Shown here: piece after piece, positions 5,105-6,412 of the stretch
How the letters are laid out: every line of letters begins with the position of its first letter
Position numbering within the stretch: position 1 is the first letter of the stretch
DNA from: Callorhinchus milii
Lineage: Eukaryota
Assembly: GCF_018977255.1 (NCBI RefSeq)
Contig: NW_024704743.1
Location: forward strand, 23,004,001 to 23,068,000
DNA: 64,000 nucleotides
Direction of reading: 5' to 3'
Position numbers and translations under genes: made by a program
The notes under the pieces: generated by a model
The model's database searches: none
The model's input: the letters and a program-made list of their open reading frames with translations, nothing else
What the model was told of the DNA's origin: nothing

Positions 5105-5263
5105 TTTGTATGTGTAGGAGGCAGTCGCTGGCGAATGAAAGCTTTCAGTCAGCACATGGCTGAAATGTTGGGCCTGGGAAATGCAACGGATGACATTCCC
5201 AACATTTGTGAAGGAACTGATCGTTACAATATGTATAAAGTGGGGCCTGTCCTAGCAGTCAGT
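5105..5263 (+). CDS. UPP1: Uridine phosphorylase exon B
   Basis: gtgtcag| ... AGT|gtaagt; 159 nt; [53 protein letters not shown] (phosphate-binding GGSxxR and TDRY motifs). Confidence 0.96.
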
Positions 5264-6412
5264 GTAAGTATCATTGCTATCAGTGTAAGTAATGTCACAT
5301 TGTATGTACAGTATATGCTATCAGTGTAAATAACAGCTCAGTGTATGTATCTATACTATTGTAAGTAACATCACAGTATAAGTATCTATTAGTGTAAGTC
5401 AGGACGGTCCAACCTTTTGGCTGCCAAGAACCGGATTCTCTATTTGAGAAAGGTCCGCGAACCGCATAACCAAAATTTTGTTTTTTCTTTCCAGAAACAT
5501 AACAACACTTACACAGCACCTTTTCATGTTGGAAAGACATCTTAACACTTGGCTGGGCACCTGAGCTGTAGGTGGGAGCCTAGAGAGGTGGGATGGGGCG
5601 GGGAAAAGATGACTGAAAGTGTGGACTTGGGTCTTGACGTGCCATGAAAGAGGGGAGGGAGCGAGCAGGAGTGACTCCAGGAATGGAACTCCAAAGAATA
5701 TGGGCAAAATGGCGATGCTGGGGCAGATGGGGTGGGGGGACATGAAGCAAGCTTCCTTCTCACACTCGACCTTCCTACTGCAATCATTCTCCTCTCTCTC
5801 ACACACTCTCAATTACTCTCTCTCACTCTCCCTCTCTCCCACACACATGCTCTGTATCCCCTCAAACTCTCTCTCAATCACCCTCTCTCAATCTCCCACT
5901 CTCTGTTCTCTCCCTCTCTCAATCTCTCACTCTCCCCTCTCTCACACACAATCTCTTTCTCACACCCCCTTTCTTACCTCTCTCTCACACACATACTCTG
6001 TCTCTTCTTCTCTCTAATTCCCTCTCTCTCCTAATCAGCCGCGCGGTTCACTATATGCAGTGGCAGGAGCTGGTAGTTGCTAAGGACGCTGTTGGTAAGA
6101 GACGCGCTTGGCTTCCTGACAGCCTGGCTCCTGCCACTGCCATGGGAGAACGTTCACCAGGGAGGGAGGGAGCGGAAGTTGGAAGGTTGGAAATGGTCTC
6201 GGGTCAGATAAAATCACCCGCCGGGCCGGATGCGGCCCGTGGGCTGCCAGTTCGACCAGGCTGGTGTAAGTAATGTCACAGTGTAAGTAACGTCACAGTG
6301 TAAGTATCTATGTTGTCAGTGTAAGTAATGTATCAGTGTAAGTAACGTCCCAGTATAAGAAATGTGTAAAGTATCTATGCTATCAGTGTAAGTAACAGCT
6401 CAGTGTAACTAA
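5252..6412 (+). repeat. Degenerate minisatellite (17-21 bp units, core CAGTGTAAGTA) made of copies of the exon B 5' splice site; two blocks, 5252-5399 and 6264-6412
   Basis: About 17 units; exact GTAAGT at 5264, 5285, 5361, 5394, 6266, 6283, 6300, 6321, 6338 and 6388. Confidence 0.9.
5400..6263. mobile_element. Non-autonomous hAT (Charlie/MER30-like) DNA transposon, 864 bp
   Basis: Perfect 8-bp TSD GTGTAAGT (5392-5399 and 6264-6271). Imperfect TIRs CAGGACGGTCCAACC / revcomp CAGCCTGGTCGAACT. Subterminal GGGCCGGATGCGGCCCGTGGGC typical of hAT MITEs. Internal CT-rich tract at ~5770-6030; no transposase. Confidence 0.88.

What the first reader, a model, noticed from the sequence alone, without database searches (positions are those of the whole stretch)
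5252..6412. An intron built almost entirely from tandem copies of its own 5' splice site
Seen: without the transposon, intron 5264-6438 is ~310 nt, and all but the last ~26 nt is a 17-21-bp repeat whose core CAGT|GTAAGTA is the exon B end plus donor. Ten exact GTAAGT donors occur, most in the same AGT| context as the true one. The first unit echoes the exon's last codons (CTA GCA GTC AGT vs ATT GCT ATC AGT). Inference: the junction was amplified by slippage, leaving a bank of equally strong competing donors. The spliceosome must pick the first, or the array gives regulated unproductive (NMD) isoforms, U1 decoys or stepwise splicing. The late unit GTAACTAAC (~6405-6413) may supply the branch point.
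Basis: partly seen in the sequence, partly recalled or inferred. Interest (0 to 1): 0.72.

Follow-up and report, generated by a model that had tools for sequence, protein, structure and literature searches.

The report
Repeated splice donor in chimaera intron
In the elephant shark's uridine phosphorylase gene, a short repeat copied one exon's splice signal about fifteen times into the next intron and was later split by a transposon, but the assembled RNA uses only the first signal, as in a few human genes with the same known oddity.

Summary
The array is real. The window is Callorhinchus milii upp1. Intron 5264-6438 holds 16 decayed units (mostly 17 or 21 nt) whose first unit spans the exon end. 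It has ten GTAAGT: one is the true donor and one is a by-product of the 8-bp target duplication of an 864-nt hAT-like insertion. A separate DNA run carries both halves at the same length and at single-copy depth. Two RNA-type runs give one unbroken contig spliced 5263 to 6439, and no spliced contig over a pseudo-donor appears in three such runs. Contigs hide minor forms, so low-level or NMD use is not excluded. Donor cores are not significantly better kept than spacers (p=0.18), 7 of 16 units have lost the motif, and the anatomy does not fit recursive splicing. The donor itself is ancient: 15 animal contigs share the junction, none with an array. This is a new member of the junction-spanning minisatellite class (human F7, CBS, IFI6, LMNB2, PDGFA; amphioxus 'mirages'), probably neutral and tolerated because the most upstream donor wins. 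This scan has already noted the same kind on other DNA, including two shark genes.

The parts
5105..5263 (+). upp1 coding exon (159 nt, FVCVGG...VLAVS); its last 4-5 nt belong to the first repeat unit
   Evidence: 100% identical to P0001, C. milii uridine phosphorylase 1; covered end to end by RNA-type contigs
5264..5271 (+). authentic 5' splice site, AGT|GTAAGTAT
   Evidence: contigs of X6 and X9 join 5263 to the next exon; P0001 joins VLAVS to HGMG
5262..5399 (+). 5' half of the minisatellite: 7 units plus the left target-site copy; extra GTAAGT at 5285, 5361, 5394; four units with a broken core
   Evidence: unbroken, gap-free contig 4850-5748 in DNA run X1
5285..5292 (+). second donor copy; the only GTAAGT copy whose use keeps the frame without a stop (+21 nt, 7 residues)
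   Evidence: no use seen
5327..5329 (+). in-frame TAA met on reading through the array; every GTAAGT copy from 5361 onward would include it
5392..5399 (+). left copy of the 8-bp target-site duplication (GTGTAAGT)
   Evidence: identical to 6264-6271; fits the nnnTAnnn Buster target consensus
5400..6263 (.). 864-nt non-autonomous hAT-like (probably Buster-type) insertion with imperfect terminal inverted repeats and a CT-rich interior; carries acceptor-like AGs ending at 5494 and 6038
   Evidence: ends match at 10 of the first 14 nt; high multi-copy depth over most of it in X1 against 7.4-7.7 on the flanks; acceptor scan
6264..6416 (+). 3' half of the minisatellite: 9 units starting with the right target-site copy; GTAAGT at 6266, 6283, 6300, 6321, 6338, 6388
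   Evidence: TRF period 17, score 105; gap-free contigs in X1 and X5
6409..6413 (+). branch-point candidate CTAAC in the last unit (A at 6412, 26 nt from the acceptor)
   Evidence: use inferred, not shown
6417..6438 (+). non-repeat tail with pyrimidine tract and acceptor TTTCAG
6439..6554 (+). next coding exon (HGMGIPS...)

Best explanation
A neutral, decaying junction-spanning minisatellite. Step 1 (inferred, well supported): a piece made of the exon's last 4-5 nt plus the start of the intron was duplicated head to tail, then expanded by slippage and unequal exchange into two unit types (about 21 and 17 nt) that now fill almost all of a 303-nt intron. Step 2 (shown by the target duplication): a hAT-like element inserted into one unit, duplicated 8 bp that contain a GTAAGT, and moved the 3' half about 0.87 kb away. 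Step 3 (shown for the major transcript): splicing joins the most upstream donor, 5263, to 6439. Step 4 (inferred from the F7 experiments and exon definition): the copies are usable sites that lose to the first donor by position; rare use of any copy from 5361 onward would include the stop at 5327 and be removed by NMD as noise. Step 5 (inferred): with no function to keep, the units drift; a G>C change in the last unit gives the CTAAC that probably serves as branch point.
For: Unbroken spliced contigs 5263>6439 in X6 (depth 53) and X9 (depth 17). Zero depth in X6 over 5270-5749 and 6230-6409, and in X9 over 5270-5389 and 6290-6409. In X5 two unspliced contigs account for all depth in the five bins 5270-5389 and 6230-6409. 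One C. milii protein in the 90% cluster. 7 of 16 units have lost GTAAGT; core substitutions 5/84 against spacer 19/163, p=0.18. Array at single-copy depth in DNA run X1. The same junction has at most one GTAAGT in 15 of 15 animal contigs, 6 of them AGT|GTAAGT. Precedent with the same outcome: F7 IVS7, LMNB2, PDGFA and amphioxus mirages.
Against: All RNA evidence is assembled contigs from three runs that are only guessed to be RNA and come from one study; contigs drop rare forms, and NMD targets are rare by nature. X5's own spliced junction at this intron is not among the rows shown, 11 joints were not shown, and depth left over at both exon edges in X5 is unassigned (2.4 and 8.5). In X9 the sites at 6266 and 6283 cannot be cleared by depth because transposon-end copies cover that bin. 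The donor core trends towards better conservation (6% against 12% substitutions), though not significantly and biased by how units were defined. In IFI6 and CBS two pseudo-sites are used besides the true one, so some use of 5285 is plausible. No chimaera or shark copy of this intron was available.
Confidence: 0.8

Rival explanations
1. Leaky array of the IFI6/CBS type: the nearest copies (5285, 5361) take a measurable minor share of splicing. 5285 gives a protein with 7 extra residues just before the HGMG motif and 5361 gives an NMD target. The effect is a small, unregulated loss of upp1 output.
For: 5285 has the same AGT|GTAAGTA context and a similar crude U1 pairing energy (-8.0 against -8.3 kcal/mol), lies 21 nt away and is in frame. 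The array is unstructured, so sites are exposed (folds less well than 178/200 and 198/200 shuffles). IFI6 and CBS use two pseudo-sites. Four of the six proximal units have lost the motif against three of nine distal ones, as selection against leakage would predict, but p=0.31.
Against: No contig over 5285 or 5361 other than an unspliced one in any of three runs. 116 of 117 homologous proteins with both motifs keep exactly four residues between GPV and HG, so a +7 product is probably not functional.
Confidence: 0.12
2. Regulated unproductive splicing: the array, alone or with acceptor-like sites brought by the transposon (5494, 6038), forms a switchable poison extension or poison exon that tunes uridine phosphorylase through NMD.
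For: All GTAAGT copies from 5361 onward include the stop at 5327. The insertion carries two pyrimidine-rich AG sites, and all 7 cryptic exons tested from them contain stops. X5 holds unspliced contigs over both halves of the array.
Against: X5 holds unspliced contigs at similar depth in the neighbouring introns too (5.6 and 12.8 against 9.1 and 4.3), so nothing is specific to the array; its contig 5865-6164 runs through 6038 unbroken. No joint from 5263 to either acceptor-like site is among those shown. No significant conservation of the cores. An allele in X1 adds a further perfect donor at 5378, which fits free drift.
Confidence: 0.05
3. Stepwise (recursive) removal of the intron through the repeat units, or U1 loading on the units as a splicing or anti-cleavage aid.
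For: Each intact unit has a CAG one base upstream of GTAAGT, and seven copies have a crude U1 pairing energy within 0.3 kcal/mol of the true donor.
Against: No AG|GT junction exists in the array (AGGT only inside the transposon), so a step would leave one extra base and shift the frame. The 20 nt before each of 9 unit CAGs are only 40-50% pyrimidine. The intron is 1.2 kb and was 303 nt, far below the lengths at which recursive splicing is described (recalled).
Confidence: 0.02
4. Assembly artefact.
For: Tandem repeats beside a transposon are prone to misassembly; no single contig spans the whole stretch.
Against: DNA run X1 has gap-free contigs across each half and both transposon junctions (4850-5748 with 4 differences, 6155-6620 with 1), and X5 has one across the 3' half. 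The units differ from each other, with no shared 20-mer between the halves.
Confidence: 0.01

Closest known systems
Human F7 intron 7 37-bp VNTR (Borensztajn et al. 2006, PMC1557585; abstract, Introduction passages and Discussion read)
   Same: First unit holds the last few exon bases plus the intron start; identical donor copies follow; only the most upstream is used.
   Different: Here the units are shorter (17 and 21 nt), of two interleaved types and decayed; the array fills nearly the whole ancestral intron, is split by a transposon, probably supplies the branch point, and showed no length variation in two samples.
Human IFI6 (6-16) intron 2 and CBS intron 13 minisatellites (Turri 1995; Yang 2000; Lievers 2001; seen only as summarised in PMC1557585 and as reference entries)
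   Same: Short units that reiterate the donor 15-25 times.
   Different: There two pseudo-sites are also used; here no such use was seen in contigs.
Human LMNB2 100-bp and PDGFA 81-bp junction repeats (seen only as summarised in PMC1557585)
   Same: Only the authentic donor is used; the LMNB2 paper's title says the repeat covers most of an intron, as here.
   Different: Much longer units.
Amphioxus 'mirages' in Adh3 and globin genes (PMC3087553; abstract and passages read)
   Same: Minisatellite-like duplications of exon-intron boundaries, 10-72 bp units in Adh3, reported not to disturb regular splicing.
   Different: Mirages are length-unstable between haplotypes; this array looks older and frozen.
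Buster-type hAT MITEs such as Drosophila Mar (PMC3517528; two passages read)
   Same: 8-bp target duplication fitting nnnTAnnn; termini begin CAG; short and multi-copy.
   Different: Terminal repeats here are imperfect (10 of 14); no autonomous partner was sought.

Membership tests
Junction-spanning donor minisatellite (F7 IVS7 / mirage type) | First unit spans the exon-intron boundary | tested here: met
   Core CAGT|GTAAGTA is shared by the true junction and the units; junction confirmed by RNA-type contigs.
Junction-spanning donor minisatellite (F7 IVS7 / mirage type) | Head-to-tail tandem array that reiterates the donor in the intron | tested here: met
   TRF score 105 on the 3' half and 108-176 on the transposon-free intron; 16 units, 9 with GTAAGT.
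Junction-spanning donor minisatellite (F7 IVS7 / mirage type) | Locus-specific, derived from its own junction | tested here: met
   Single-copy depth at 93% likeness in X1; at most one GTAAGT at the same junction in 15 of 15 other animal contigs, 10 with the whole intron.
Junction-spanning donor minisatellite (F7 IVS7 / mirage type) | Most upstream donor is the one mainly used | tested here: met
   Major spliced contig uses 5263 in X6 and X9; no spliced contig over the copies. Minor use not excluded.
Junction-spanning donor minisatellite (F7 IVS7 / mirage type) | Copy number varies between individuals (VNTR) | tested here: inconclusive
   No gaps in X1 (both halves) or X5 (3' half and 5234-5376); only base changes. 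Too few samples, and contigs only.
Junction-spanning donor minisatellite (F7 IVS7 / mirage type) | Pseudo-sites become active when the upstream donor is disabled | not testable with these tools
   Needs a minigene.
Recursive splice sites | Acceptor directly abutting a donor (AG|GT) behind a pyrimidine tract | tested here: not met
   No AGGT in the array; one base separates CAG from GTAAGT; 40-50% pyrimidine upstream.
Conserved poison exon / regulated NMD element | A stop-bearing isoform is detected and the element is under purifying selection | tested here: inconclusive
   Stops would be included, but no such isoform in contigs and no significant core conservation; no NMD-blocked data and no close relatives.
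hAT (Buster-type) non-autonomous element, for 5400-6263 | 8-bp target duplication fitting nnnTAnnn | tested here: met
   5392-5399 equals 6264-6271; consensus.
hAT (Buster-type) non-autonomous element, for 5400-6263 | Short terminal inverted repeats | tested here: inconclusive
   10 of the first 14 nt match.
hAT (Buster-type) non-autonomous element, for 5400-6263 | An autonomous Buster transposase with the same termini in the genome | not tested
   No whole genome was held.

The most novel reading that the evidence does not exclude
The decayed array has been put to use at both ends of the intron: its last unit became the branch point, and the surviving donor copies, perhaps joined to a transposon-supplied acceptor, form an NMD-coupled switch whose strength segregates in wild elephant sharks (the allele at 5378 adds a perfect donor). 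That would be a splice-regulatory element built from a gene's own donor.
Probability: 0.05. Interest if true: 0.55.

Novelty: new member of a known kind. Interest (0 to 1): 0.15.

Why it matters
It matters little on its own. It is one more natural case showing that the spliceosome takes the most upstream of several near-identical donors. Two side points have some value. The intron is a compact natural test of position-based donor choice, with one in-frame copy 21 nt away, stop-including copies further on, and a transposon that moved six copies about 0.87 kb. It also suggests that a donor-like unit (GTAAGTAAC) can become a branch point (GTAACTAAC) by one base change, so a junction repeat could replace nearly a whole intron. 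Both points need raw RNA reads and lariat data.

Tried and rejected
No whole genome was held, so the frequency of such arrays in C. milii and the transposon family could not be surveyed. The run search listed no holder on record as RNA; X5, X6 and X9 are guessed RNA, and that blank is not used as evidence. Rfam found only 7 tRNA-like matches in the window, none in the intron. RNA structure as a mask for the pseudo-donors was rejected: both halves fold no better than shuffles. The long 'codon echo' was rejected as significant. Selection for the cores (p=0.18) and selection against proximal copies (p=0.31) were both not significant. The U1 pairing energies use a recalled U1 motif and are not held to register, so they are a crude guide only; no MaxEntScan or SpliceAI was available. 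The first cryptic-exon calculation was off by one base and was redone. The metagenome scan required GT after the Ser codon, so it shows only intron-bearing loci; none looked chondrichthyan. Turri 1995 could not be read. One search for a paper on this locus (Callorhinchus milii, uridine phosphorylase, intron, minisatellite; 10 of 1,565 listed) showed none that describes it; a search for a genome-wide survey in fish gave nothing on point. No structure or complex prediction was run.

Full report
Gene and species. The 53-residue product of 5105-5263 is 100% identical to P0001, named uridine phosphorylase 1 of Callorhinchus milii; the next hits are shark proteins at about 74-83%. tblastn of P0001 places six coding exons in the window, near 4893, 5105, 6439, 12029, 14852 and 18079, and the protein runs VLAVS|HGMG, which is a phase-0 join of 5263 to 6439.

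The observation. Intron 5264-6438 holds ten exact GTAAGT, 8 of 10 after AGT. The other 62.8 kb of the + strand hold ten, so 0.05 would be expected in 303 nt. AGTGTAAGTA with up to one mismatch occurs 18 times in the window against a shuffle mean of 4.65, and 14 of the 18 are in this intron. I divide the array into 16 units: six of a type of about 21 nt, nine of a 17-nt type and one 11-nt remnant. Nine keep GTAAGT and seven have lost it. The stretch 5400-6263 is flanked by identical 8-mers, GTGTAAGT, so one of the ten sites was made by the insertion and the earlier intron was 303 nt with nine. That 8-mer fits the nnnTAnnn target consensus of Buster-type hAT elements (PMC3517528, passages). The element's ends match at 10 of 14 nt and most of it is multi-copy in DNA. 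The duplicated piece therefore probably began only 4-5 nt inside the exon, as in F7.

Is it real DNA? I laid 4 of the 24 listed runs. DNA-type run X1 has gap-free contigs over 4850-5748 (4 differences) and 6155-6620 (1 difference) at depth 7.4-7.7, the same as the flanks. X5 has a gap-free contig over 6155-6474. So both halves and both transposon junctions exist in other data, the array has no close copy elsewhere in the genome at 93% likeness, and no change in unit number was seen. No single contig spans the whole intron. X1 carries A>G at 5378, which restores a further AGT|GTAAGTAT.

Which donor is used? X6 has one 2426-nt contig (depth 53) through three exons, joining 5263 to the next exon; X9 has the same join (depth 17). 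The tool reports it as 5263>6442 with CAT between, because these samples carry a synonymous C>T at 6441. X6 has no depth over 5270-5749 or 6230-6409, and X9 none over 5270-5389 or 6290-6409. In X5 the two unspliced contigs explain all depth in the five bins over the array, and unspliced contigs of similar depth lie in the neighbouring introns, so they are pre-mRNA or DNA. Against over-reading: the three runs are guessed RNA from one study, contigs drop rare forms, 11 joints were not shown, X5's own spliced junction here is not displayed and leaves unassigned depth at both exon edges, and sites 6266 and 6283 cannot be cleared in X9. The major isoform uses the first donor; minor or NMD-sensitive use is open. 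The C. milii 90% protein cluster has one member.

What would other donors give? Only 5285 keeps the frame without a stop (+7 residues). Read-through meets TAA at 5327, so all copies from 5361 onward give a premature stop. The six distal copies would need an exon of 1161-1283 nt, and the last would leave a 51-nt intron. Of 124 homologous proteins, 117 carry both flanking motifs and 116 of those keep exactly four residues between them. The exception is a smelt upp2 isoform with 17 extra residues; of the 7 without both motifs, 6 run on into other sequence at this junction. So extension at this junction is occasionally called or annotated in other animals, but a length change is not kept in normal products.

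Is the array maintained? Over 14 units (true-donor unit and remnant left out) the GTAAGT core has 5 substitutions in 84 sites and the rest 19 in 163 (p=0.18). The remnant's two core changes and one core insertion are not counted, and units share variants, so the test is rough. Proximal units are more often broken (2 of 6 intact against 6 of 9), but p=0.31. Neither selection for the copies nor selection against them is shown. Recursive splicing does not fit: there is no AG|GT in the array and no pyrimidine tract before the unit CAGs. The array RNA is unstructured. The last unit reads GTAACTAAC, with A6412 26 nt from the acceptor, and is the only branch-like match found 15-45 nt upstream of it; its use is inferred.

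Direction of origin. A degenerate search of metagenome contigs gave 15 loci with the same exon end followed by GT. Ten hold the whole intron (55-1485 nt) and five part of it. Six start AGT|GTAAGT and none has more than one GTAAGT. TRF found two short repeats near the junction (L009, L013), neither of which reiterates GTAAGT. The intron and its donor are therefore old in animals and the array is derived from them. No chimaera or shark intron was among the 15, so the array's age is unknown.

Comparison with what is known. Borensztajn et al. 2006 (PMC1557585; abstract, Introduction passages, Discussion) describe minisatellites whose first unit spans an exon-intron boundary in F7, IFI6, CBS, LMNB2 and PDGFA. 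They show for F7 that the copies are functional but lose to the most upstream site; IFI6 and CBS also use two pseudo-sites. The same structure is called a mirage in amphioxus, where it is reported not to disturb splicing (PMC3087553, abstract and passages). The upp1 array meets the anatomical tests and the first-donor test; copy-number variation was not seen and activation of the copies could not be tested. Earlier notes of this scan report the same kind in other genomes, including shark EMILIN1 and GIPC1 (unchecked, not counted as support); one of them gave me the mirage lead. No note exists near this place. Supplementary files were not read; I see no claim here that depends on them.

Verdict. 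A real, modest, decayed example of a known class, probably neutral (0.8). What is particular here is the near-complete replacement of a short intron, the split by a hAT-like element whose target duplication added a donor, and a likely branch point made from a donor-like unit. Interest 0.15.

Noticed in passing
window 5378: Run X1 reads G for A, which restores a perfect AGT|GTAAGTAT, so the number of intact donor copies differs between haplotypes.
   Followed up: partly
window 5494 and 6038: The transposon carries two acceptor-like AGs with pyrimidine tracts on the sense strand; all 7 cryptic exons tested from them contain stops, and no joint from exon B to them was among those shown.
   Followed up: partly
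window 6441 and 6442-6445: All four laid runs read T at 6441 where the window has C (synonymous His). In X5 the exon contig starts at 6445 at depth 41 against 22 for the exon before, and its spliced junction is not displayed; an allele near 6444 is my guess.
   Followed up: partly
L009 near 1465-1501: A short 12-nt repeat (about 3 copies) starts at the donor of the same intron in another animal, without reiterating GTAAGT.
   Followed up: no
L013 600-694: A 27-nt tandem repeat begins about 18 nt after the same donor, with no donor motif in it.
   Followed up: no
P0043, P0059, P0065: Predicted isoforms in a smelt, a beaked whale and a takin run on past this same donor (17 extra residues, or into other sequence).
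   Followed up: no
window 90-400, 2250-2400, 7420-8070, 10520-11460; tRNA-like matches at 11154, 19915, 31895, 35565, 42844, 45841, 60525: A dispersed repeat family with tRNA-like heads, probably a SINE, occurs many times in both orientations.
   Followed up: no
window 1187-1308 with 1993-2114: A 122-nt inverted repeat pair (80%) 684 nt apart, possibly another non-autonomous DNA element.
   Followed up: no
window about 8200-10000: A C-rich stretch (GC skew near -0.4) in the next intron that looks like a decayed LINE fragment; label recalled, not tested.
   Followed up: no
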